From: an uncultured Bacteroidales bacterium
Lineage (GTDB): Bacteria > Bacteroidota > Bacteroidia > Bacteroidales > UBA1402
Length of the DNA stretch: 15,217 bases
Direction of reading: 5' to 3'
NCBI GenBank assembly: GCA_964472175.1
Contig: CAYYJF010000034.1
Location: 4,503-19,719 of the forward strand
The first letter of the stretch is position 1; each line of letters begins with the position of its first letter. Of this stretch, positions 1,761-15,186 are shown piece by piece. The notes beneath the pieces are model-generated. The model worked only from the letters and a program-made list of their open reading frames with translations, was not told the origin of the DNA and did not search any database. A program made the translations under genes and the position numbers.

Positions 1761-1836
1761 GGTCTGATAGCTCAATGGTTAGAGCAGGCGCTTTATAAGC
1801 GTCAGGTTATGGGTTCAACCCCCATTCGGACCACCA
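1761..1836 (+). tRNA. tRNA-Ile, anticodon UAU (reads AUA), 3' CCA encoded
   Basis: Cloverleaf folded by hand. The acceptor stem GGTCTGA/TCGGACC has 7 bp with one G-U pair. The D-arm is GCTC..GAGC. The anticodon stem is GGCGC/GCGTC with loop TTTATAA, giving anticodon TAT at 1794-1796. The variable loop is 5 nt. The T-arm is ATGGG-TTCAACC-CCCAT. The discriminator is A followed by CCA. Confidence 0.8.
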
Positions 1837-1841
1837 ATTTC

Positions 1842-1878
1842 AAAAAACCACCAATAATAAAAATGTTGGTGGTTTTTT
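1842..1878 (+). terminator. rho-independent terminator downstream of the tRNA
   Basis: Perfect 13-bp inverted repeat AAAAAACCACCAA / TTGGTGGTTTTTT with an 11-nt loop. The 3' arm ends in a T-run. Confidence 0.7.
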
Positions 1879-1918
1879 GTTGACTCGATGAATCATCTAT
1901 GATGTAGTTTTGGACATC

Positions 1919-2212
1919 ATGAAACTCTGGCTCGATGATATTAGAACTCCTCCCAACTCCGATTGGATTTGGGCTAAAACGGCGGATGATGCTATCTATC
2001 TAATCCGTACGCAGAAGGTTGATGAAATTTCATTTGATCACGATTTGGGCAATGACATCGGTGGGACGGGCTATTCCGTCGCAATGGAAATTGAGTTCCT
2101 CTGCCATGAGAAAAAAATGAAATGCCCCAAGTGGAAAGTTCATTCGGCAAATCCGGTTGGGGGTTCCAACATCATTATGGCGATGAAGAATGCTGAAAAA
2201 TATTCAATTTAA
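1919..2212 (+). CDS. hypothetical small protein with receiver(CheY)-like acidic motif pattern
   Basis: The ORF track begins at TTG 1910; the first ATG is at 1919 (MKLWLDD...). The pattern W-L-DD near the N-terminus, ISFDHDLG mid-protein, and a later S/T and K are reminiscent of a REC-like fold, but the protein is only ~97 aa. The assignment is tentative. Confidence 0.5.
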   Translation: MKLWLDDIRTPPNSDWIWAKTADDAIYLIRTQKVDEISFDHDLGNDIGGTGYSVAMEIEFLCHEKKMKCPKWKVHSANPVGGSNIIMAMKNAEKYSI

Positions 2213-2215
2213 CCT

Positions 2216-2554
2216 ATGAACGCAATTAAAAAAATCATCTCGTTTCTCTACACCGTTGCGGGTCTGCGATTTGTTGCCAGACTCGTTCGGTTCATGTTCC
2301 GTTTGTACATGGATTTTATTGATCGTGTTCTTATGCACCGTGACGCATTTGGTTTTCTTATTTTAATTGGTGGCATTAGTGTAATTGGTAGCTGGGTTTG
2401 TTGGTCGCTCGACTGGACAATTCCATATAATATGTTATTCTTTATTTTTGAGTTCATTGCTTTTTCGTTCGTTGTTGGCCTCATACGGAAAGTATATGAA
2501 TATATTACAACTGATGAAGATGTGAAGGAATACTTGCGCTCGCTTTGGAAATAA
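2216..2554 (+). CDS. small integral membrane protein
   Basis: 112-aa ORF with two strongly hydrophobic segments (FLILIGGISVIGSWVCW and FFIFEFIAFSFVVGLI). It is translationally coupled to the next gene (TAATATG). Confidence 0.6.
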   Translation: MNAIKKIISFLYTVAGLRFVARLVRFMFRLYMDFIDRVLMHRDAFGFLILIGGISVIGSWVCWSLDWTIPYNMLFFIFEFIAFSFVVGLIRKVYEYITTDEDVKEYLRSLWK

Positions 2555-2555
2555 T

Positions 2556-2975
2556 ATGAAGAAGAAACTCAATTTGCCTTTGGCGGTGTGTTTAGTTCTG
2601 GAAGGCCCATGCGAAACATTCTTGGGAGTAACGCGTAGAAATAATCCAGCTAGCTGGTGCTTCCCCGGCGGTAAGGTTGATAAAGGGGAAACGCCAGAGA
2701 AGGCAATCGTTCGTGAAGTGTTAGAGGAAACTGGGCTACGGATATTCCCAAGTGGCTTAAAGAAAATCCACACTGGATTGGATTCAATTGTAAATCCATA
2801 TCAAGTAATTAGTTTTGTATGTAATGATAATGAATGGTTTAATGACCAAAAACTAATTCAATGTGAGAATGATATTCAAGTTGGGTTTGTTCCTGTAAGT
2901 TATCTGATGAATGGTGAATTTGGGGAGTATAATAGACGCGTGCTAAAAAAATATCACACGTATAAACTTACTTGA
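2556..2975 (+). CDS. Nudix hydrolase
   Basis: Canonical Nudix box GGKVDKGETPEKAIVREVLEETGL (GX5EX7REVXEETG) at residues ~39-62. The 139-aa size is typical of single-domain Nudix pyrophosphatases. Confidence 0.85.
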   Translation: MKKKLNLPLAVCLVLEGPCETFLGVTRRNNPASWCFPGGKVDKGETPEKAIVREVLEETGLRIFPSGLKKIHTGLDSIVNPYQVISFVCNDNEWFNDQKLIQCENDIQVGFVPVSYLMNGEFGEYNRRVLKKYHTYKLT

Positions 2976-3045: not shown

Positions 3046-3537
3046 ATGAAAGTTGTAATTAATAAATGTTATGGTGGGTTTGGGTTAAGTCATCAAGCAG
3101 TAATGGAATATGCCAAACGCAAAGGCATGACTTTGTACGCATACGCACATCCACCAACGGATTGCGGATACGATTGGGATAAATATATTCTAATAGACCA
3201 GACCGTTAATAACGATGATGCGTCGATTATGGCGCCCGATCAACAAGATTCAATTGTTGTGTTAAATGAGTATAGTGGGTATTTTATTCATTGTTATTAT
3301 TATTCGACTAACCGGATTTTAGAAAATGGTACGTTTCCTCCCAAAAGCTATTTTGATTATAACAACATCGAGCGAGACGACCCTGATTTGATTGCTGTTG
3401 TCGAGGAACTTGGAGAAGTTGCAGATGGATTTTGTTCAAAACTAAAAATCGTGGAAATTCCAAATGGAACGGATTGGACAATTTCTGATTATGATGGCAT
3501 GGAATCCGTTCGAGAAACCCATCGCTCTTGGTATTAA
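3046..3537 (+). CDS. hypothetical protein
   Basis: 163-aa ATG ORF with protein-like composition on the coding strand of the rightward block. No motif recognised. Confidence 0.55.
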   Translation: MKVVINKCYGGFGLSHQAVMEYAKRKGMTLYAYAHPPTDCGYDWDKYILIDQTVNNDDASIMAPDQQDSIVVLNEYSGYFIHCYYYSTNRILENGTFPPKSYFDYNNIERDDPDLIAVVEELGEVADGFCSKLKIVEIPNGTDWTISDYDGMESVRETHRSWY

Positions 3538-5119: not shown

Positions 5120-5131
5120 GTGGAAATAAAA

Positions 5132-5159
5132 AATCGGATATCAATGAGGATATCCGATT
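5132..5159 (-). terminator. rho-independent terminator ending the 5187-7812 operon
   Basis: Perfect 11-bp inverted repeat AATCGGATATC / GATATCCGATT with loop AATGAG. On the minus strand it is followed by TTTTTTATTT. Confidence 0.6.
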
Positions 5160-5186
5160 CTGAGTGAATTGTAAAATTAATATAAC

Positions 5187-6302
5187 TTAGGTATCTTGGT
5201 CAAGATTTTCAATTATATCACTTACCTCGTCCAATAGCTCTTTTTTCGTCTTTGATAATTTATATTCGGCGATCGCAAGCTTGTAATCCATCGATCCCTT
5301 ACCCAAATCGGTAGGCAATACACTATGTTCCCATTCGGCGATAACTTGCCCAATATTCTTTTCAGTAACATTTGGAAAGCTTTTGAGAATATGCCCGCCA
5401 CCAAAATGTTTAGATGCCTTCTGCATCTTATCTCGATTATTTTTGAATGTAGTTAGTTCATCAAGAAGATTGGATTCTGGGAACCACGATTCAATATAAT
5501 CAATTCCAGTAGGGCCAAGAGGAATATCAAATCGAGTTTTTTCTGGAAATTTATTTCTATTATCCTGCATGTATTGATACAATTCGGAAAAGAATGGTCG
5601 GGTTCTGTCTCGTTTTCGATGTTTTGTATTTTCGGAATCAGCTGATAGAAATCTTTGATCGATTCGAATCGATGAAAATAGGAATTCTTTTAACTTCTCA
5701 TATGTTACTGTTTCATCGGTATACAGAAGTTTAATATCATCAGCTACATATCCCAAAAACGATAAAATTCTAATAAAATCCTTACTTAAAAGTATTCTAG
5801 TAATTTCAGTTCCTTTTTCTCTGTAAACATATTCCAACCCATCGATTCCAAATTTTAGGTCGTACACCCTAGCAAGCCTACCAAAAAACATACCAGCGTC
5901 ACCATATGCCATATAGTTGGCTAGATATTCAAATTCCAAATCCGACTCGCATATCGTCACATCACATTGAACTCCATTATATAAAAAGCTAATTGAATTG
6001 AATTGTGTATCGACAAATGACGTGAATTCTTTAATCGCCATTAATTCTCGTTTGGTGTTACTAATGTCGCAGCAGTCTATATACACAATAAAATCAATAT
6101 CCCCAAACGAACATTTATCCGATGGGCATTTAACTAAATTGATGTTACAACAACCGATTGAGTTATGAATAATACGTGAACAACGATTACTAAAATCATC
6201 ATATTCTTCACGAGTCATTCTATTGCCATTTAAAAGTTTTCCTCCCATATAGATAAAAATTAGGTGTTGGTGGTTGGATTGGCAACCAAATAGTTGCTCC
6301 AC
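5187..6302 (-). CDS. nucleotidyltransferase-fold protein (pol-beta-like NTase motif), function unknown
   Basis: The segment CPSDKCSFGDIDFIVYID fits a degenerate h[G/P]S-x5-G-D-h-D-h-h-h NTase signature. The protein is Cys-rich. The track start is GTG at 6302, overlapping the upstream gene by 43 nt. The first ATG at 6248 (MGGKLL...) gives an 11-nt spacer and may be the true start. Confidence 0.55.
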   Translation of the reverse strand: MEQLFGCQSNHQHLIFIYMGGKLLNGNRMTREEYDDFSNRCSRIIHNSIGCCNINLVKCPSDKCSFGDIDFIVYIDCCDISNTKRELMAIKEFTSFVDTQFNSISFLYNGVQCDVTICESDLEFEYLANYMAYGDAGMFFGRLARVYDLKFGIDGLEYVYREKGTEITRILLSKDFIRILSFLGYVADDIKLLYTDETVTYEKLKEFLFSSIRIDQRFLSADSENTKHRKRDRTRPFFSELYQYMQDNRNKFPEKTRFDIPLGPTGIDYIESWFPESNLLDELTTFKNNRDKMQKASKHFGGGHILKSFPNVTEKNIGQVIAEWEHSVLPTDLGKGSMDYKLAIAEYKLSKTKKELLDEVSDIIENLDQDT

Positions 6303-6910
6303 TGCTTTGCCATTGCGTTAGCAATCCCGGAATACGTCTTGCTACGCTCCTTCCACCGAGTTGCACTGGGAGCGAGTTTGTTCTGACCGCTATCTGTTTG
6401 ATTACTCCAGCGGGTGGCAAGCGGTTTTCCGTACAAGTTACGAACAATGCGCCCAGCGACAGGAATCTCGTCCTTGATCAATTTAGGTAGGCCACCTCTC
6501 AACCACAGGCATGTTTTTTTGCTGGCATCATCACCAAATTCATATGGTTGAACGATTTGGTCCGGCTTTCGAATCTTGGTAGAAATAATTCCAACCGGAT
6601 TTTCAATGTATCCCGGAATAGGAAGTTGCATAAGTTCCCGGACCTCTTCCAGAGATTCATTTGTCTTATCCCAACCACGACCGCGATCATTCCAATGAAT
6701 TCCACTCACACAAAGATACGTGCAAGCAGGATGAGATCCAATAAAGTCCCATTTTTGCTTCTTGATAGCTTCTCGCCAGTCACATTGATAGTGAAATGGG
6801 GAATTATCATCTGCCGGAAGCAAATCACATGACCAAGCATTATGTCCCAGCGCCCGAAATGCGTTTCGCACGACACCAGATGACTCGTGAGTAATAAGAA
6901 CGTTAAGCAT
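6260..6910 (-). CDS. small C5-cytosine methyltransferase-like (Dcm-fold) protein
   Basis: SSGVVRNAFRALGH resembles motif I (xGxGG-R-A....G). GSHPACTY resembles the catalytic Pro-Cys motif IV. GYIENPVG resembles the ENV motif VI. At 216 aa it is too short to carry a full target-recognition domain. Confidence 0.55.
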   Translation of the reverse strand: MLNVLITHESSGVVRNAFRALGHNAWSCDLLPADDNSPFHYQCDWREAIKKQKWDFIGSHPACTYLCVSGIHWNDRGRGWDKTNESLEEVRELMQLPIPGYIENPVGIISTKIRKPDQIVQPYEFGDDASKKTCLWLRGGLPKLIKDEIPVAGRIVRNLYGKPLATRWSNQTDSGQNKLAPSATRWKERSKTYSGIANAMAKQWSNYLVANPTTNT

Positions 6911-6915
6911 GAACG

Positions 6916-7335
6916 TTAAATGTTACCAACGGAAAAGAACTTGAACGCGTCCTCGGAAACCAATGAAACCAATCTATCTAAGGTTTCTTTTGACTCGATC
7001 TTTTCATAATGGTCATGCCACTCACCATCCTCGAAATCAAACCCACGAACATGTGAGATTGCACAATTAATTCCACGATTTTGCCACTCCAAGACGCCAT
7101 CCTCGTTTGCAATGGGCATATCTTGGAACCAGATATAATAAGTAACTCCGCCAATGGAAACCGACACGGCATCACTCAGATACTTGTTGATGCCGACGAG
7201 CTTCTTGAAATTTTCATTCCAGCGAGGGGCCGGAACGACGCCTAGAGTTTCGATTGTTAGTTGGATGTCCTGAATCATGAGTACAAGTCTGTTGGTTAAT
7301 TCCGAAATGTCAAGACGCGTTTTAAAATTACACAT
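6916..7335 (-). CDS. hypothetical protein
   Basis: 139-aa ATG ORF. Its ATG directly abuts the TGA of the PRTase gene in the same frame (TGAATG). No motif recognised. Confidence 0.55.
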   Translation of the reverse strand: MCNFKTRLDISELTNRLVLMIQDIQLTIETLGVVPAPRWNENFKKLVGINKYLSDAVSVSIGGVTYYIWFQDMPIANEDGVLEWQNRGINCAISHVRGFDFEDGEWHDHYEKIESKETLDRLVSLVSEDAFKFFSVGNI

Positions 7336-7812
7336 TCAACTCTCAATATTATGACTCTCAATATTATGAAATAGTTTACCATTTATTTCAGAATCAAATA
7401 GTAAATTTGCCGATGGCGTATATAATGAGAGATCATTGCATAGGACCAATCCTACCAATTGCATTCCCTTGGCATCAACCGCCATTTTAATTCGGTTGAA
7501 TGTTTTCCCGCTATCAATTGTGTCATCAACGAATACAACTCGAAGTGGGTGGTCTATCCCGTTTGCGAGCTTTTCCGGTATCTCGACGCTGAATGCAGAA
7601 TGTGTCCTATCAGACTTTTTTCTGACGTACACGATTGGGATTTTGAGCTTCATTGATAGGACCATAGCATTGGCTATTCCGCTGATTCCCGTGCAAATCA
7701 AGGCATCATACTCACCCGCCTTGTCTTTGAGTAATGTCTTTGCATTTTTCAACAAATGCCCATCCTGAAAAGGAGTGCCAGATAATAGTGCTTCCAGATA
7801 TTGAACCGCCAT
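7336..7812 (-). CDS. type I phosphoribosyltransferase (Apt/Hpt/OPRT-like) family protein
   Basis: The PRPP-binding loop VVFVDDTIDSGKT is present (compare VLIVEDIIDSGNT in HGPRT). The upstream element YDALICTGISGIANAMVLSMKLKIPIVYVRKK matches the base-side loop of Apt/OPRT. The protein is 158 aa. Confidence 0.8.
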   Translation of the reverse strand: MAVQYLEALLSGTPFQDGHLLKNAKTLLKDKAGEYDALICTGISGIANAMVLSMKLKIPIVYVRKKSDRTHSAFSVEIPEKLANGIDHPLRVVFVDDTIDSGKTFNRIKMAVDAKGMQLVGLVLCNDLSLYTPSANLLFDSEINGKLFHNIESHNIES

Positions 7813-7865
7813 ACTGCCAATAGTGTGACATATACGAAGACGCGAGTCAAAATATTATAAACGAA

Positions 7866-7899
7866 AAGTGGTCAATGGATATGATTCCATTGACCACTT
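7866..7899 (-). terminator. hairpin terminator after the SPFH gene
   Basis: Perfect 14-bp inverted repeat AAGTGGTCAATGGA / TCCATTGACCACTT with loop TATGAT, 34 nt downstream of the SPFH stop. It is followed on the minus strand by a T-rich run (TTTCGTTTATAAT). Confidence 0.5.
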
Positions 7900-7932: not shown

Positions 7933-9048
7933 TTACTTGGCGCTAGTAGCAACCACTGCCTGCGTAGCCTGGGAGTTGTCAGTTGGGGACCCAACCACCC
8001 CGTTCAGGAACATATTCAGCCCAGCCGAGCTACCAACAATCGTAACGGGGAGTTTGCCGTCCCAACGCTTATTAAGCTCAAGTTGGTTATTCAGCGACTT
8101 GTCAATCGCGTACATCGGATTCTTAGAAGCCTTTTCGAGCGCATCATTGACGAGCGAAATGCCCTTTGCTTCGGCTTCTCGTTTGGACAAGATGGCATCG
8201 GCTTCACCCTGAGCAATCAATCGGGCATTCTTTGCCTGCTGAGTGGCCAAATCCTCGGACTTCTTATTAATATCCTTAACAGCATCAAGTGCCGCCTTCG
8301 CAGTTGCCTTTTCCTGTTCGGCAATAAACACCTTATCAATGGACTCTTGAATGCTCTTATTCTCATACGTGATACCACCGAATTGACCGAGGGTTTGAAT
8401 AGTAATACCCTTCTGCGCATAGAACGGGACAACCTTATTGCGAACAGCGTCCATCATCTCGTCCTTTTTAGCACGGAGGTCATCAAGCTTAAACTGAGTG
8501 GAATAAGACGCCATGACCTCAGCAATGCTATTACGAACCTCGTTCTTCAATACATTCTCAAGAGATTTATCACGATACATATAAAGGAACTTGGCAGCAT
8601 CTTCCTCCTTAATATATGCAGTCATGACAACACCAACGGAGAACCCGATAGAATCCTTAGACTCAACCCAAACGGCATCGGAATCGTTCGGAGTGTCGGC
8701 GAGCAACTTTACATTAACAGGAGAGCGGTCAACTTTGATAACGCGATTTACTTTCTGCCATTCGCCGGTCTGGGTCCAATCAAATCGGCCCTTATTGATC
8801 CAAACATACTCTTCTTGAATCTTGCGAACTGCGACCTTGACCGACGGAGAGTTATAATATTCTTCCGAGTCAAACTTGACTTGAGCGTTCTTGTTCTCAC
8901 CGATGAGGGGAACAACGAACATAGTTTCCGTACTGTCGGCTTCTGCGAACGTAACCGGCTTAACCGGACGGATGCAGCCGGAGGTGAACAGAGACATGCC
9001 AAACAGCATGACCGCAAGAATCATAGAGAAGAACTTAGTATATTTCAT
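7933..9048 (-). CDS. SPFH/band-7 (stomatin/prohibitin/HflK-like) domain lipoprotein
   Basis: The N-terminal signal peptide has a lipobox-like ...LFTSGC. There is a central SPFH-type region. The Ala/Glu/Lys-rich coiled-coil tail (EQEKATAKAALDA, AQGEADAILSKREAEAKG) is typical of the family. 371 aa. Confidence 0.85.
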   Translation of the reverse strand: MKYTKFFSMILAVMLFGMSLFTSGCIRPVKPVTFAEADSTETMFVVPLIGENKNAQVKFDSEEYYNSPSVKVAVRKIQEEYVWINKGRFDWTQTGEWQKVNRVIKVDRSPVNVKLLADTPNDSDAVWVESKDSIGFSVGVVMTAYIKEEDAAKFLYMYRDKSLENVLKNEVRNSIAEVMASYSTQFKLDDLRAKKDEMMDAVRNKVVPFYAQKGITIQTLGQFGGITYENKSIQESIDKVFIAEQEKATAKAALDAVKDINKKSEDLATQQAKNARLIAQGEADAILSKREAEAKGISLVNDALEKASKNPMYAIDKSLNNQLELNKRWDGKLPVTIVGSSAGLNMFLNGVVGSPTDNSQATQAVVATSAK

Positions 9049-10387: not shown

Positions 10388-10777
10388 TTAGTTAGATACA
10401 GTGGGAACAACTTCCTTAATTGTCAACATAAATTGTTGACAGCGGTCAAAGAATGCAGGGTCAAACGCACGAACAAACTCGTCCGTCAATTCAATCAAGT
10501 TGCATTTTCTTATATCAATCACGAAGCTTGAATTTGCACAAGTGAGCATCACTGCATACGGCAAGTCCAATGCCCGAACGTGCAGGACTGTTTTGGAACA
10601 ATGTGCCTCATTTACAACATTTGAATTAATTGTCCCAATTGTTTTAATAATGTCCTCCGGCGCATCATATGTATCCTGAACTGGTTGTGTACAGTTGAAC
10701 GGCTTCACGTCGGTGATCATCACAAACATCCCAAGTGAAAGTTCTCCTGGGGTAATATTGGCAATGGTATTTTTCAT
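10388..10777 (-). CDS. hypothetical protein, paralogue family 2 (copy A)
   Basis: 129 aa. It shares blocks with 13377-13736: TPGELSLGMFVMI versus SPGELEVGMFVTV, LHVRALDLPYAVM versus LTVKAIDLPYIVF, and LIELTDEFV versus LMELSDDYV. Confidence 0.65.
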   Translation of the reverse strand: MKNTIANITPGELSLGMFVMITDVKPFNCTQPVQDTYDAPEDIIKTIGTINSNVVNEAHCSKTVLHVRALDLPYAVMLTCANSSFVIDIRKCNLIELTDEFVRAFDPAFFDRCQQFMLTIKEVVPTVSN

Positions 10778-12474: not shown

Positions 12475-13380
12475 TTAAATTAAATTTTTCCCCTCAATGA
12501 TTCCATTCAATCCGTTGTTATCCGATATAACATTCCGATTGAGCGGAGAAAGCTTGATGAAGAAATACTTCGGATCGAAATATTTCTTGAGCAATTCAAT
12601 ATCAAAATCATTTTCATCAAACAATGTAAGATTGATTGTGGTGAGAAGATTGCTTTTGGTTCTGACTTGACCAAGCTCCTCAATTGTCATCTTCTTAGAA
12701 ATCGGAATCAATTGATCACGAGTCGCTTCCTTGAGAGAATGCAGTGAAAGTTGGAGAGTGATGTTATCTTTAATCCAACTAAAATCAGCACCTTTAATTC
12801 CAATTGTGCTTACAAAGAGATGGATGTTCTTGAATCTGGCCGTTAAGATTTCACATGCCTTTTTAACATTTTCTTGGTTGAGACCCCAATCGCCCATACG
12901 AGTCATATTAACCTTGAACTCTTTTGAATCTTCTGGATTCAGTTCTGGGTGTTTGGATAGAATGAAATCAACTTGTTCGACAATTTCTTGTGCGGTGAGA
13001 TTTCTGGTTCGCTTCAATTTTCCTGTCGCGCAAAATTTGCAGCCGATTGGGCATCCGCTTGCAACAGAAATCCCTATTAGGAATCTCTCCGTTCTGTCGC
13101 CCAATTCATAATTTATTAGAAAATTTTGATGGCATCCTATGGCATCTTTGGTTGAGATTGGAAGAAACGTATCAGTTACTTCAACCGGATATCCATCATT
13201 TGTATGAAGAAGATACACCGCTCCATTCGCAAAATGTTTGGATTTAATTTGATGCATAAATGAAAGTGACTGCTCCACATGCTCCAAGTAGACCTGCGAT
13301 ATCTTTGTCACCAAATAACCCGCATAGAACAGAACCAATTGCAAAAATTCCGCAAATAATCCATTTAAATTTTTCTTCAT
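12475..13380 (-). CDS. radical SAM enzyme, RlmN/Cfr family (RNA adenine C2/C8 methyltransferase-like), C-terminally truncated by an in-frame TAA
   Basis: The CxxxCxxC motif is GCPIGCKFCATG. The flanking GISVASGCPIGCKFCATGKLKRTRNLTAQEIVEQV corresponds to RlmN [36 protein letters not shown]. Further matches are MTRMGDWGLN, FVSTIGIK and LQLSLHSL...IPISKKMTIEEL, which correspond to RlmN MMGMGEPLLN, TLSTSGVV and LAISLHAP...VPINKKYNIETF. The ORF starts with an ATGA overlap on paralogue B. Confidence 0.85.
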   Translation of the reverse strand: MKKNLNGLFAEFLQLVLFYAGYLVTKISQVYLEHVEQSLSFMHQIKSKHFANGAVYLLHTNDGYPVEVTDTFLPISTKDAIGCHQNFLINYELGDRTERFLIGISVASGCPIGCKFCATGKLKRTRNLTAQEIVEQVDFILSKHPELNPEDSKEFKVNMTRMGDWGLNQENVKKACEILTARFKNIHLFVSTIGIKGADFSWIKDNITLQLSLHSLKEATRDQLIPISKKMTIEELGQVRTKSNLLTTINLTLFDENDFDIELLKKYFDPKYFFIKLSPLNRNVISDNNGLNGIIEGKNLI

Positions 13381-13736
13381 TCATGTTTATTTTTATTTTT
13401 TTCTTCAATTTTATTTTTTAAATGGGGATGACGCGCGATGACATAATCATCGCTCAATTCCATTAAAGTTGTTCGACGCGTATCCAATGTCGAAGTGTGT
13501 GTATCAGTGGGACAGTTATTTTCTGCCTGAAATACAATATACGGCAAATCGATTGCCTTAACGGTTAAAACATCTCCATACCAAGACCTATCGTGTGTTT
13601 TTGTGGTAACAACGGTTAGCCCACCGAAGCCCTCGTCACTTACATGTTCTTTTGTGTATGGGGCGTGGTTGTGGACCGTTACAAACATTCCAACTTCAAG
13701 TTCTCCCGGTGAAAGTATTTTTGAGTTTGCTGACAT
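13377..13736 (-). CDS. hypothetical protein, paralogue family 2 (copy B)
   Basis: 119 aa. Homologous blocks to 10388-10777 are listed under that feature. The ATG lies 9 nt after a terminator hairpin. Confidence 0.65.
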   Translation of the reverse strand: MSANSKILSPGELEVGMFVTVHNHAPYTKEHVSDEGFGGLTVVTTKTHDRSWYGDVLTVKAIDLPYIVFQAENNCPTDTHTSTLDTRRTTLMELSDDYVIARHPHLKNKIEEKNKNKHE

Positions 13737-13791: not shown

Positions 13792-15186
13792 TTATTGTGT
13801 GGCGTTCTTCCGAATTTCGTCGAACGAATATTTCTTTACCAGTTCTCCGCAGTTGAATACCTCAACCAAGACATCCTCACCCTCGTCTTCAAGACGACGG
13901 GTTTCATACCCAGTTTCGGTTTTAACTAGCTTCAATCGACCCTTCTTCGACTTCTTTCCGCCATCAATCGGGTCTTTAAAAATATCATTCCATTTACCAT
14001 CTCGGTATTGAGCGGAGCATTTGAAGGCAAATCGAAGATCGTCTCGACAAACTCGTTGCAATAGATTAGATCCGATTCCGAAGCAAGAGATATTCTCAGT
14101 TGCCCAACCATTAATGGTAAGAGCCCCAAGAATATTCTTAACTCCTTGAATATCAACACCGTCTCCCCATAGCAATTTTAATTTTGGATTGATTACCTTG
14201 TATCCTTTGCTATTAATAGTCCCGCCAAACTTGTTCCAAAGAATGTTGCACAATTTAAGAAGTACCTCCTCTGGGTCGCCGGAATCTGGGCGGATAACCA
14301 ATACACCATCACGCGCAAGAATTTGTTCCTTGTACTGCTCACCGCAAATCTTCTCGGCGAAGTCGTAAATGTTGTAGGTATCCCCCACAAGGGACAGAAT
14401 TCCGGTAGGATATTTTGTAAGGAGATCGCCAACAACTTTCGCTTCACCTTCTCGACCCAACGCTGACATTATTTGATGCTCGCTGGCCGGCACACTGAAC
14501 CCAAGATTGTCCAAATTTGCATCGTAATACTCACAGGCTCCCTCCAATGCAATAATCGTATCAGTTCCCTTGAAATTTACAAGATGTGCCATACCCCCAA
14601 GAGTGGCTTGCTCTGGCGTGGTGACACTTCTGAATCCAAAATCGTGAATAAAAAAATCAAGAAGGAAATTGTCGGAAGTCTTCTCCAAGAAGTGTTTAAC
14701 GGATAATTTTGCATATCGACCCTGAGTAGCAACGGTACTACCATACCACATATAATTGGTCAAAACAGTTTCAAGATAACCAGTGAGCCAACGGAATTTG
14801 CTTCCGCCCAGATTATGAATGGTCATCAATACATTGGATGTTCCAACCGTCAACCCTTCGGGTACAGCTCGGATTACTACTGGAAGTTTACCGTTGTAGT
14901 CGGTTAGAATATCTTCCCACCCCTGTCGATTGAATGAATTATCGTTTCCAAAATGTTTCTTAGCCAAAAGAGCTGCCCGCTCAATCTTTTCACGGGTAAC
15001 AACTTGACCTACCAAGTGTCGCATAATTCCAACTTGAAGACCGAAGAAAGTTACAAAATCCCACTTCCCACCAGCTCGCGCCTCAAAGTAAGAGTATGTA
15101 GTTTCCGTTCTCTCTGGGAACATGTTCCAATGGGCACCAAGCTTATAGCTATCGGTCGTGATGATAATATTATCGATGTTTTTCAT
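13792..15186 (-). CDS. nadV: nicotinamide phosphoribosyltransferase (NAMPT / NadV-like; type II PRTase)
   Basis: 464 aa with hallmark NAMPT blocks: IITTDSYKLGAHW, FKGTDTIIALEGA, VIRPDSGDPEEV and LLWGDGVDIQGV. The length and domain order match phage and bacterial NadV/NAMPT. It cannot be distinguished by eye from the NAMPT-like Namat of the NARP1 pathway. Confidence 0.9.
   Translation of the reverse strand: MKNIDNIIITTDSYKLGAHWNMFPERTETTYSYFEARAGGKWDFVTFFGLQVGIMRHLVGQVVTREKIERAALLAKKHFGNDNSFNRQGWEDILTDYNGKLPVVIRAVPEGLTVGTSNVLMTIHNLGGSKFRWLTGYLETVLTNYMWYGSTVATQGRYAKLSVKHFLEKTSDNFLLDFFIHDFGFRSVTTPEQATLGGMAHLVNFKGTDTIIALEGACEYYDANLDNLGFSVPASEHQIMSALGREGEAKVVGDLLTKYPTGILSLVGDTYNIYDFAEKICGEQYKEQILARDGVLVIRPDSGDPEEVLLKLCNILWNKFGGTINSKGYKVINPKLKLLWGDGVDIQGVKNILGALTINGWATENISCFGIGSNLLQRVCRDDLRFAFKCSAQYRDGKWNDIFKDPIDGGKKSKKGRLKLVKTETGYETRRLEDEGEDVLVEVFNCGELVKKYSFDEIRKNATQ

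What the first reader, a model, noticed from the sequence alone, without database searches (positions are those of the whole stretch)
5132..7899. Terminator-bounded four-gene operon: type I PRTase, unknown, Dcm-like C5-MTase-fold, NTase-fold. Candidate nucleotide-modifying or anti-defence module
The four minus-strand genes are packed with 0-11 nt spacers (TGAATG, a 5-nt gap, then an overlap or 11-nt gap). Hairpin terminators delimit the unit on both sides (7866-7899 upstream, 5132-5159 downstream), so it looks like a discrete transcription unit. It combines three nucleotide-acting folds:
- a PRPP-dependent base-to-NMP enzyme,
- a pyrimidine-C5-directed methyltransferase-like protein too small to carry a DNA target-recognition domain,
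- a pol-beta-superfamily nucleotidyltransferase-fold protein.
That combination is what one would expect for synthesis of a modified nucleotide (C5-modified pyrimidine NMP made from base plus PRPP, then transferred or activated) or for a nucleotide-signal manipulating system (anti-CBASS, anti-Thoeris or similar). I do not recognise it as a described system.
Basis: partly seen in the sequence, partly recalled or inferred. Interest (0 to 1): 0.7.

Follow-up and report, generated by a model that had tools for sequence, protein, structure and literature searches.

The report
Co-transcribed but unrelated phage accessory genes

Summary
Observation confirmed. Four minus-strand genes (7812-5187) have spacers of 0, 5 and 11 nt. 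They sit between two strong hairpins, 7899-7866 and 5161-5130.

The fold calls hold:
- Gene 1 is a type I PRTase (Pfam above threshold, PRPP loop intact). No base specificity can be assigned.
- Gene 2 is an ORFan confined to this phage clade.
- Gene 4 is a truncated family-X polymerase (palm plus thumb, as in ASFV Pol X) with an extra roughly 190-aa helical domain.

The system-level idea is not supported. In 80 viral loci carrying the Pol X-like gene and 80 carrying the MTase-like gene (±10 kb), the partners never co-occur. In a sister phage the Pol X-like gene alone was swapped for a 71%-identical allele, while its neighbours stay 92-99% identical.

Most likely these are independent co-transcribed accessory genes: orphan DNA methylase, base-salvage PRTase and repair-type nucleotidyltransferase. 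They lie in an accessory-gene region that also encodes a NAMPT, a Nudix, a cREC domain, an RlmN-like enzyme and a tRNA. Moderate-to-low interest.

The parts
7866..7899 (-). Upstream hairpin: terminator of the preceding SPFH/Band_7 gene, or an attenuator
   Evidence: 14-bp stem, -24.6 kcal/mol, z = -7.5. Compensatory G:C to C:G change in L007.
7336..7812 (-). Type I phosphoribosyltransferase, 158 aa, base specificity unassigned
   Evidence: PF00156 at 2.1e-8, 34.1 bits against a 26.3 cut-off. phrog_2068 at 8e-11. PRPP loop VVFVDDTIDSGKT read from the sequence. All NCBIfam equivalogs fall far below their cut-offs. Weak PDB match to OPRT 3dez.
6916..7335 (-). ORFan, 139 aa; its start abuts the PRTase stop codon (TGAATG)
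   Evidence: No Pfam, PHROG, NCBIfam, PADLOC or PDB hit. No phage tblastn hit. An exhaustive phmmer over 1.84 billion representatives found only its own cluster plus two spurious repeat matches. 97% identical in L007, with 9 synonymous and 4 non-synonymous codon changes, so it is a real gene.
6260..6910 (-). TRD-less C5-cytosine-methyltransferase-fold protein, 216 aa (PHROG 757; P-SSP7 gp12 / Bcep1 gp12 family)
5187..6248 (-). Truncated family-X polymerase-like nucleotidyltransferase, 353 aa: palm plus thumb, then a roughly 190-aa helical C-terminal domain
5130..5161 (-). Downstream intrinsic-terminator-like hairpin with a T-run
   Evidence: 13-bp stem, -15.8 kcal/mol, z = -6.1. Identical in L007.

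Best explanation
This is a lineage-specific, co-transcribed string of four functionally independent accessory genes in the accessory-gene region of an uncultivated, probably large, phage.

Shown:
- The gene structure and the two flanking hairpins.
- The fold and family of three of the four proteins.
- The lack of linkage among the genes outside this clade.

Inferred functions:
1. The 216-aa protein is an orphan SAM-dependent DNA cytosine-C5 methyltransferase of the very common PHROG-757 family. It would methylate phage DNA to evade restriction. A short, highly conserved loop (RWSNQTDSGQNKL) stands where a target-recognition domain normally sits.
2. The 158-aa type I PRTase converts a free nucleobase plus PRPP to an NMP (purine or orotate type, specificity unknown) and so tops up nucleotide pools. 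Its start-stop junction with the ORFan (TGAATG) suggests translational coupling, so the ORFan may be its partner or regulator.
3. The 353-aa protein is an ASFV-PolX-like minimal family-X polymerase. It would add nucleotides to a 3'-OH in short-gap DNA repair, or possibly in RNA or tRNA 3'-end repair. Its basic C-terminal helical domain may replace the missing 8-kDa and HhH DNA-binding domains.
For: - Folds and motifs.
- Independence by neighbourhood: 0 of 80 and 0 of 80 co-occurrence within +/-10 kb.
- Different neighbourhoods for the MTase-like gene: MazG/nrdJ/thyX in phiM6, the early region of P-SSP7, next to a primase in Silvanus, and even 6-8 kb Microviridae genomes.
- Different neighbourhoods for the Pol X-like gene: tRNA arrays, a CCA-adding enzyme, PNK, phosphoesterases, PhoH, plus DNA ligase, PARP, NAMPT and GIY-YIG genes.
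- PRTase relatives in cluster-A mycobacteriophages lie by a DnaB-like helicase and an RDF.
- Genome level: 16 Stenotrophomonas phages carry the Pol X-like gene, while Stenotrophomonas is not among the top organism names for the MTase-like gene.
- Mosaicism: window against L007 DNA identity is 92-100% on both sides and 51-79% exactly across the Pol X-like gene. Protein identities are 92, 97, 99, 71 and 96%.
- No PADLOC hit for any of the four proteins.
Against: - No biochemical evidence exists for any of the four proteins.
- I found no experimental characterisation of PHROG 757 or of the Pol X-like family in the searchable literature.
- Pfam PF00145 does not hit the MTase-like protein, and a profile comparison with E. 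coli Dcm is insignificant, so the link is structural only.
- 60-69% identity among the best-matching MTase-like homologues, with hosts of related phages ranging from Proteobacteria to Actinobacteria and a Methanosarcina virus at 37-58%, is unusual for sequence-specific DNA MTases. It could mean a universal, non-DNA substrate.
- The window's Pol X-like protein departs from the family at several near-invariant positions: K4, P42, G116, M120 and R127 in place of N, Y, N, N and H (and the sequence).
- Lack of conservation elsewhere does not prove that the proteins do not cooperate in this phage.
- The ORFan remains unexplained.
Confidence: 0.6

Rival explanations
1. First reader's model. The four proteins form one pathway that makes or installs a C5-modified pyrimidine nucleotide (base plus PRPP to NMP, C5 modification, then transfer by the NTase), or that manipulates a nucleotide immune signal (anti-CBASS or anti-Thoeris-like).
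For: All three assignable folds act on nucleotides or nucleic acids. The genes are tightly packed between hairpins. The arrangement is kept in seven contigs of the clade.
Against: No co-localisation in 160 related loci or in isolate phages. The NTase was exchanged independently of the other three genes. The NTase is a Pol X-type polymerase, not a CD-NTase or a small-molecule NTase. C5-MTase-fold enzymes act on polynucleotide-embedded cytosine, not on free NMPs (established knowledge). No PADLOC signal.
Confidence: 0.1
2. Metabolite-pool counter-defence. The PRTase, perhaps with the coupled ORFan, belongs with the flanking NAD+/ADPR genes (NAMPT, NMNAT-Nudix, Nudix, cREC). It would re-synthesise nucleotides from free bases released by defence nucleosidases, for example adenine from ATP-nucleosidase effectors, in analogy to NAD+ reconstitution. 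The MTase and Pol X genes would remain independent.
For: A NAMPT lies at 15186-13792 and passes its NCBIfam cut-off. A bifunctional NMNAT/Nudix lies just upstream of it in L001. A cREC domain and a Nudix are in the window. Iyer et al. 2021 (PMC7824862) describe cRec, Nudix and NAMPT as NAD+-centred counter-defence genes in jumbo phages. The best PRTase family matches are hypoxanthine/guanine and adenine PRTases.
Against: The PRTase scores are far below every equivalog cut-off, so base specificity is unknown. The NAMPT is about 6 kb away, with several hairpins in between. No relatives link the PRTase to NAD genes. I found no published precedent.
Confidence: 0.15
3. RNA or tRNA-directed module. 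The Pol X-like protein repairs or extends tRNA or other RNA 3' ends, and the TRD-less C5-MTase-fold protein methylates a universally conserved RNA (Dnmt2-like). Together with the phage's RlmN-like enzyme, cREC domain and tRNA gene, they would counter tRNA-targeting defences.
Confidence: 0.1

Closest known systems
Phage orphan C5 DNA methyltransferases, PHROG 757 (P-SSP7 gp12, Bcep1 gp12, phiM6 gp40)
   Same: Full-length match at 1.6e-58 and 45-58% identity to isolate phage proteins. C5-MTase catalytic-domain fold with Pro-Cys and ENx motifs.
   Different: Relative to classical Dcm or M.HhaI: about 110 residues shorter and no target-recognition domain. Motif I reads ESSG instead of FxGxG. No PF00145 hit. 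I found no experimental proof of activity for the family.
African swine fever virus Pol X (minimal family-X polymerase) and bacterial or eukaryotic Pol X (T. thermophilus PolX, Pol beta, Pol lambda)
   Same: Palm with three catalytic Asp residues (D50, D52, D96) and a thumb subdomain with a YFTGS-like motif. Like ASFV Pol X, it starts at the palm and lacks the 8-kDa and HhH domains.
   Different: It has an extra roughly 190-aa helical C-terminal domain carrying a conserved basic motif N-x3-R-x-R-D-x2-R. Identity to solved Pol X structures is only 9-15%. It has no PHP domain. In phages it lies near tRNA arrays or RNA-repair genes and not in a base-excision-repair cluster.
Type I phosphoribosyltransferases (APRT, HGPRT, OPRT); phage phrog_2068 (cluster-A mycobacteriophage PRTases)
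   Same: PF00156 domain and PRPP-binding loop.
   Different: Only 158 aa. It fits no equivalog model: 13-38 bits against cut-offs of 100 or more. The function of the phage PRTase family is itself unknown.
NARP2 (NAMPT plus NMNAT) phage NAD+ reconstitution
   Same: The same phage carries the NAMPT (15186-13792). A bifunctional NMNAT/Nudix lies just beyond the window end.
   Different: None of the four genes belongs to NARP1, NARP2 or NARP3 (PMC13464706). The small PRTase is a type I PRTase, whereas NAMPT belongs to the NAPRTase family (PF04095).

Membership tests
Type I PRTase (PF00156) | Profile score above the curated threshold | tested here: met
   34.1 bits against a 26.3 cut-off, E = 2.1e-8.
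Type I PRTase (PF00156) | PRPP-binding loop: hydrophobic strand, two acidic residues, then small residues and (T/S)-G-x-T | tested here: met
   VVFVDDTIDSGKT, read directly from the translation.
Specific PRTase equivalogs (APRT, HGPRT, XPRT, OPRT) | Score above the NCBIfam equivalog cut-off | tested here: not met
   Best is HPT_Archaea at 38.4 bits against 200. All others are lower.
C5 cytosine methyltransferase (Dcm / PF00145) | Class I MTase catalytic-domain fold of the C5 family | tested here: met
C5 cytosine methyltransferase (Dcm / PF00145) | Sequence-profile membership | tested here: not met
   No PF00145 hit at E <= 1. No NCBIfam hit. The profile against PDB finds no MTase. hhalign against E. 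coli Dcm gives probability 0.2%.
C5 cytosine methyltransferase (Dcm / PF00145) | Motif IV Pro-Cys nucleophile and motif VI E-N-x | tested here: met
   H60, P61, C63 and E103, N104, P105 are invariant in 30 family members. They follow strands E56-59 and E100-104 of the model. Their equivalence to HhaI C81 and E119 is inferred from order in the fold, not from a residue-level structural alignment.
C5 cytosine methyltransferase (Dcm / PF00145) | Motif I FxGxG SAM loop | tested here: inconclusive
   The loop after strand 1 reads C/H-E-S-S-G, with E9, S11 and G12 invariant. It is a variant loop, and SAM binding was not tested.
C5 cytosine methyltransferase (Dcm / PF00145) | Target-recognition domain between motifs VIII and IX | tested here: not met
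   The protein has 216 aa, of which 183-192 align to catalytic cores of 291-327-aa enzymes. Only a conserved loop, RWSNQTDSGQNKL, occupies that position.
C5 cytosine methyltransferase (Dcm / PF00145) | SAM-dependent methyl transfer to cytosine C5 | not testable with these tools
   Needs biochemistry or methylome sequencing.
Family X DNA polymerase | Pol-beta-type palm with three catalytic carboxylates | tested here: met
   The profile aligns GDlD with GDLDFLV and QvD with QVDL of TthPolX at E = 5e-5. D50, D52 and D96 are invariant in 42 sequences.
Family X DNA polymerase | Thumb (nascent-base-pair) subdomain with a YFTGS-type motif | tested here: met
   Yfa-nD aligns with YLTGSD of TthPolX. 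152 residues align to the 176-aa ASFV Pol X chain, which by established knowledge consists only of palm and thumb. The window protein itself reads YMAYGD and has M at the near-invariant N120.
Family X DNA polymerase | N-terminal 8-kDa (dRP lyase) and HhH fingers domains | tested here: not met
   The match to PolX starts at query residue 3 and PolX residue 147. There is no N-terminal extension, as in ASFV Pol X.
Family X DNA polymerase | Template-directed nucleotide addition | not testable with these tools
   Needs primer-extension assays.
Conserved multi-gene system (nucleotide-modification or anti-defence operon) | Component genes co-localised across divergent genomes | tested here: not met
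   0 of 80 and 0 of 80 loci. Isolate contexts differ. The same order is seen only in near-identical relatives.
Known defence or anti-defence families | Match to a defence-system protein model | tested here: not met
   PADLOC gave no hits for the four proteins. No anti-defence-specific library was available.

The most novel reading that the evidence does not exclude
The unannotated, ASFV-PolX-like 'mini Pol X plus helical C-domain' family has at least 575 members, mostly in large phages. It repeatedly sits beside tRNA arrays, a CCA-adding enzyme, PNK and phosphoesterases. It may be an RNA or tRNA 3'-end repair nucleotidyltransferase that counters tRNA-targeting immunity, not a DNA polymerase. 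In the same reading, the ultra-conserved TRD-less C5-MTase-fold family (found from microviruses to large phages) would act on a universal non-DNA substrate.
Probability: 0.12. Interest if true: 0.6.

Novelty: new member of a known kind. Interest (0 to 1): 0.3.

Why it matters
The result removes a false lead: this is not a new four-gene nucleotide-modification or anti-signalling system. It also points to two large, experimentally untouched phage protein families that are cheap to test:
- A roughly 210-aa C5-methyltransferase-fold enzyme without a recognition domain. It is highly conserved (37-69% identity to the window protein) across phages of Proteobacteria, Bacteroidota, Cyanobacteria, Actinobacteria and Archaea, and occurs even in Microviridae.
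- A minimal Pol X with a new C-terminal domain.

Knowing their substrates would improve annotation of thousands of phage genomes. It might also yield a compact cytosine methylase or a compact polymerase as a tool.

Tried and rejected
1. Near or distant DNA relatives among 50,697 phage records: only one 105-nt match inside the MTase-like gene. The phage is uncultivated.
2. Direct PDB sequence searches for the MTase-like protein, the NTase and the ORFan: nothing significant. The MTase family profile against PDB also found nothing.
4. ORFan homologues: an exhaustive phmmer returned only its own cluster and two spurious repeat or low-complexity proteins.
5. Single-sequence search for related loci for the NTase and the PRTase in viral contigs: no relatives. 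The alignment-based scans worked.
6. The 232-aa neighbour of the distant NTase homologue P0003 (locus L008) is unrelated to any of the four proteins.
7. AFDB Foldseek was unavailable.
8. Repeated promoter-like motifs near the hairpins: none found.
9. Literature: searches aimed at experimental work on PHROG 757, phage mini Pol X or a phage type I PRTase counter-defence found none. NARP3 is an unrelated PnuC/NadR pair.
Full report
**Observation**

The window carries four minus-strand ORFs:
- 7812-7336, 158 aa
- 7335-6916, 139 aa
- 6910-6260, 216 aa
- 6248-5187, 353 aa

The spacers are 0 nt (TGAATG), 5 nt and 11 nt. The alternative overlapping GTG start at 6302 is wrong. Six independent metagenomic gene calls use the 353-aa form, and M1-G2-G3 is invariant in 42 family members.

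Both hairpins exist and are far stronger than shuffled sequence:
- 7899-7866: 14-bp stem, -24.6 kcal/mol, z = -7.5.
- 5161-5130: 13-bp stem, -15.8 kcal/mol, z = -6.1, followed by a T-run.

In the relative L007 the upstream stem carries a compensatory G:C to C:G exchange, which argues that the structure is selected.

Caveats:
- The whole minus-strand array from about 15186 to 4422 is co-directional and is broken by several such hairpins.
- Terminator-like sites are not enriched window-wide (15 against 11.4 +/- 3.5).
- No sigma-70-type promoter was called between the upstream hairpin and the first start codon.

A 'discrete transcription unit' is therefore plausible but not demonstrated.

**Source**

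There is no close DNA relative among 50,697 phage records. The exact MTase-like protein occurs on at least 23 metagenomic contigs, up to 26 kb long, with the same gene order. The nearest NAMPT relatives are in phages of 170-640 kb. The window therefore probably comes from an uncultivated large phage.

**Gene 1: PRTase**

- Pfam PF00156 is above its gathering threshold (34.1 against 26.3 bits), and phrog_2068 hits at 8e-11.
- The PRPP loop VVFVDDTIDSGKT is intact.
- All NCBIfam equivalogs (archaeal HPT, APRT, XPRT, OPRT) score 13-38 bits against cut-offs of 100 or more. The only PDB sequence hit is a weak OPRT match. It is a type I PRTase of unassigned base specificity.
- Its only phage relatives in the isolate collection are 178 cluster-A-type mycobacteriophage PRTases. 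In the one locus inspected (phage Fredward) the gene lies next to a DnaB-like helicase and an RDF, with no MTase or NTase partner.

**Gene 2: ORFan**

- No hit in Pfam, PHROGs, NCBIfam, PADLOC, PDB or phage genomes.
- An exhaustive phmmer over 1.84 billion representatives found only its own cluster plus two spurious repeat proteins.
- It is 97% identical in L007, with 9 synonymous and 4 non-synonymous codon changes, so it is a real gene.
- Its start abuts the PRTase stop codon. This is the only hint of a functional pairing within the unit.

**Gene 3: MTase-like protein**

Family size and spread:
- phrog_757 'DNA methyltransferase' hits at 1.6e-58.
- 308 phage records carry it, including P-SSP7 gp12, Bcep1 gp12, phiM6, Ruegeria, Cellulophaga, Flavobacterium and Arthrobacter phages, a Methanosarcina virus, and 6-8 kb Microviridae genomes.
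- There are at least 7,946 homologous clusters. The best are 60-69% identical to the window protein.

Sequence and structure evidence:
- Pfam, NCBIfam and PDB sequence or profile searches see no MTase. hhalign against E. coli Dcm is insignificant.
- Invariant residues sit where C5-MTase motifs are expected: E9-x-S11-G12 after strand 1, D29 at the end of strand 2, D44 after strand 3, H60-P61-x-C63 (consensus HPPCTYL-S-AG, i.e. motif IV PPCQxFSxAG), and E103-N104-P105 (motif VI ENV).
- There is no room for a target-recognition domain. An invariant loop, RWSNQTDSGQNKL, occupies that place.

Its activity is presumed in the literature, not shown. For example, PMC11499846 simply presumes anti-restriction methylation.

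**Gene 4: NTase**

- phrog_24943 'DNA polymerase' hits at 6e-16.
- A first word-indexed search found three proteins. A profile that included distant phage homologues found at least 575, all 'hypothetical' and without Pfam domains.
- The family profile hits T. thermophilus PolX at E = 5e-5, then Pol lambda and Pol beta. The alignment starts at PolX residue 147, where the palm begins. It superposes GDxD on GDLDFLV, QvD on QVDL, and Yfa-nD on YLTGSD.
- BFVD Foldseek returns phage homologues and giant-virus family-X polymerases.

The protein is a minimal Pol X (palm plus thumb, with no 8-kDa, HhH or PHP domains). It also has a helical C-terminal domain of about 190 aa carrying a conserved basic motif: N207, R211, R213 and R217. 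From my memory of the Pol beta sequence (not checked with a tool), Y112, D117, N120 and R124 of the family correspond to Pol beta Y271, D276, N279 and R283. The window protein keeps the catalytic triad and R124, but departs from near-invariant family residues at positions 4, 42, 116, 120 and 127.

**Are the four genes a system?**

The same order is found only in contigs of the same phage clade (L001-L007).

Neighbourhood tests:
- I fetched 80 viral loci encoding Pol X-family members with +/-10 kb flanks. None contains an MTase-like or ORFan homologue. One has a weak PRTase hit about 7 kb from the Pol X-like gene.
- Another 80 viral loci encode MTase-family members. None contains a PRTase, ORFan or Pol X-family gene, by tblastn for all three queries and additionally by a Pol X-family HMM.

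Contexts in isolate phages:
- The MTase-like gene sits next to MazG, nrdJ and thyX (phiM6), in the early region (P-SSP7), or beside a primase (Silvanus).
- The Pol X-like gene sits after a run of about 16 tRNA genes and near a PNK and a phosphoesterase (Mendera), next to a CCA-adding enzyme (pPa_SNUABM_DT01), near tRNAs and metallophosphoesterases (X1), or next to PhoH (ME3).

Recurrent neighbours across 59 non-redundant Pol X loci:
- T5orf172/GIY-YIG mobile endonuclease genes
- an unannotated 178-aa protein with two H-x-S motifs (possibly a 2H phosphoesterase, judged by eye only)
- PARP
- ATP-dependent DNA ligase
- a NAMPT-like protein (judged from its sequence; it was not among the proteins scanned)

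In addition, 36 of 80 loci carry tRNA arrays, though many of these loci are syntenic and so not independent.

Mosaicism: the window-against-L007 alignment is 92-100% identical on both sides and falls to 51-79% exactly across the Pol X-like gene. Protein identities are 92, 97, 99, 71 and 96%. That gene has been exchanged, or has diverged, as a single-gene cassette.

**Wider context**

The unit lies in an accessory-gene region that includes:
- NAMPT at 15186-13792 (NCBIfam 499 bits against a 405 cut-off). A bifunctional NMNAT/Nudix lies just beyond the window in L001. Together they form a NARP2-type pair.
- An RlmN/Cfr-like radical-SAM gene.
- An SPFH/Band_7 gene.
- A cREC domain and a Nudix.
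- A tRNA-Ile with anticodon TAT.

Iyer et al. 2021 (PMC7824862) interpret cRec, Nudix and NAMPT as NAD+-centred counter-defence genes in jumbo phages. The four genes are thus embedded among independently acquired auxiliary and counter-defence genes, which fits the 'string of independent accessory genes' reading.

**Mechanism I commit to (confidence about 0.6)**

The genes are co-transcribed but independent.
1. An orphan SAM-dependent DNA C5-cytosine methylase protects phage DNA from restriction.
2. A type I PRTase salvages a nucleobase with PRPP into NMP, possibly assisted or regulated by the translationally coupled ORFan.
3. A minimal Pol X extends 3'-OH ends in short-gap DNA repair, or less likely in RNA or tRNA end repair. 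Its C-terminal basic helical domain may supply nucleic-acid binding.

The folds, motifs, gene structure and lack of linkage are shown. The substrates and biological roles are inferred.

**Rivals**

- The single-pathway or anti-signalling model (about 0.1).
- A base-salvage counter-defence role for the PRTase, linked to the NAD+ genes (about 0.15).
- An RNA or tRNA-directed role for the Pol X-like and MTase-like proteins (about 0.1).

**Novelty and interest**

Each assignable gene is a new member of an existing, annotated but uncharacterised phage family. The four-gene arrangement is a lineage-specific juxtaposition. Interest is modest (0.3). The residual value lies in the two large untested families: the TRD-less C5-MTase fold and the mini Pol X with a new C-terminal domain.

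Noticed in passing
window 13792-15186 (-); L001:692-1687: A full-length NAMPT (NCBIfam 499 bits against a 405 cut-off). Just beyond the window end in L001 lies a 331-aa bifunctional NMNAT/Nudix. Together they form a NARP2-type NAD+ reconstitution pair.
   Followed up: partly
window 12475-13380 (-); L004:2496-4436: A phage radical-SAM protein of the RlmN/Cfr type (TIGR00048 at 1e-21, below cut-off; motif GCPIGCKFCATG...RNLT). In the sister contig L004 the same gene is 646 aa and carries an intein (PF14890).
   Followed up: partly
window 1761-2975 (+): tRNA-Ile with anticodon TAT (1761-1836), a cREC_REC 'cyclic-phosphate processing receiver' domain protein (1910-2212, 7e-26) and a 139-aa Nudix (2556-2975), clustered on the plus strand.
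   Followed up: partly
window 5238-6234 against L007: The Pol X-like gene alone is 51-79% identical in DNA between two phages that are otherwise 92-100% identical. This indicates single-gene allelic replacement or fast divergence.
   Followed up: yes
window 10388-10777 and 13377-13736 (-): Two small proteins of unknown function (129 and 119 aa) look like paralogues. They share N-terminal motifs (PGEL..GMFV) and DNA repeats D2 and D17.
   Followed up: no
window 7933-9048 (-); L003: The SPFH/Band_7 gene directly upstream of the unit is missing in contig L003. The 163-aa gene at 3046-3537 (phrog_16527) is missing in L007. These are presence/absence differences among close relatives.
   Followed up: no
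phage records MG945187, MT837589, PQ006155: Homologues of the TRD-less C5-MTase-fold protein occur in 6-8 kb genomes: one Microviridae record (MG945187) and two unclassified small viruses (MT837589, PQ006155). That is a large investment for such small genomes.
   Followed up: no
L050:8955-9494 and 27 related ORFs: An unannotated protein of about 178 aa with two H-x-S motifs (possibly a 2H phosphoesterase, judged by eye) is the second most frequent neighbour of the Pol X-like gene, in 15 of 59 locus groups. It has no Pfam hit.
   Followed up: partly
window 5187-7812: PRTase, MTase-like and Pol X-like start codons lack an obvious Shine-Dalgarno sequence upstream; the ORFan has only a weak GAGAG. 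A perfect TATAAT lies just after the upstream hairpin but has no properly spaced -35 element (sequence).
   Followed up: no
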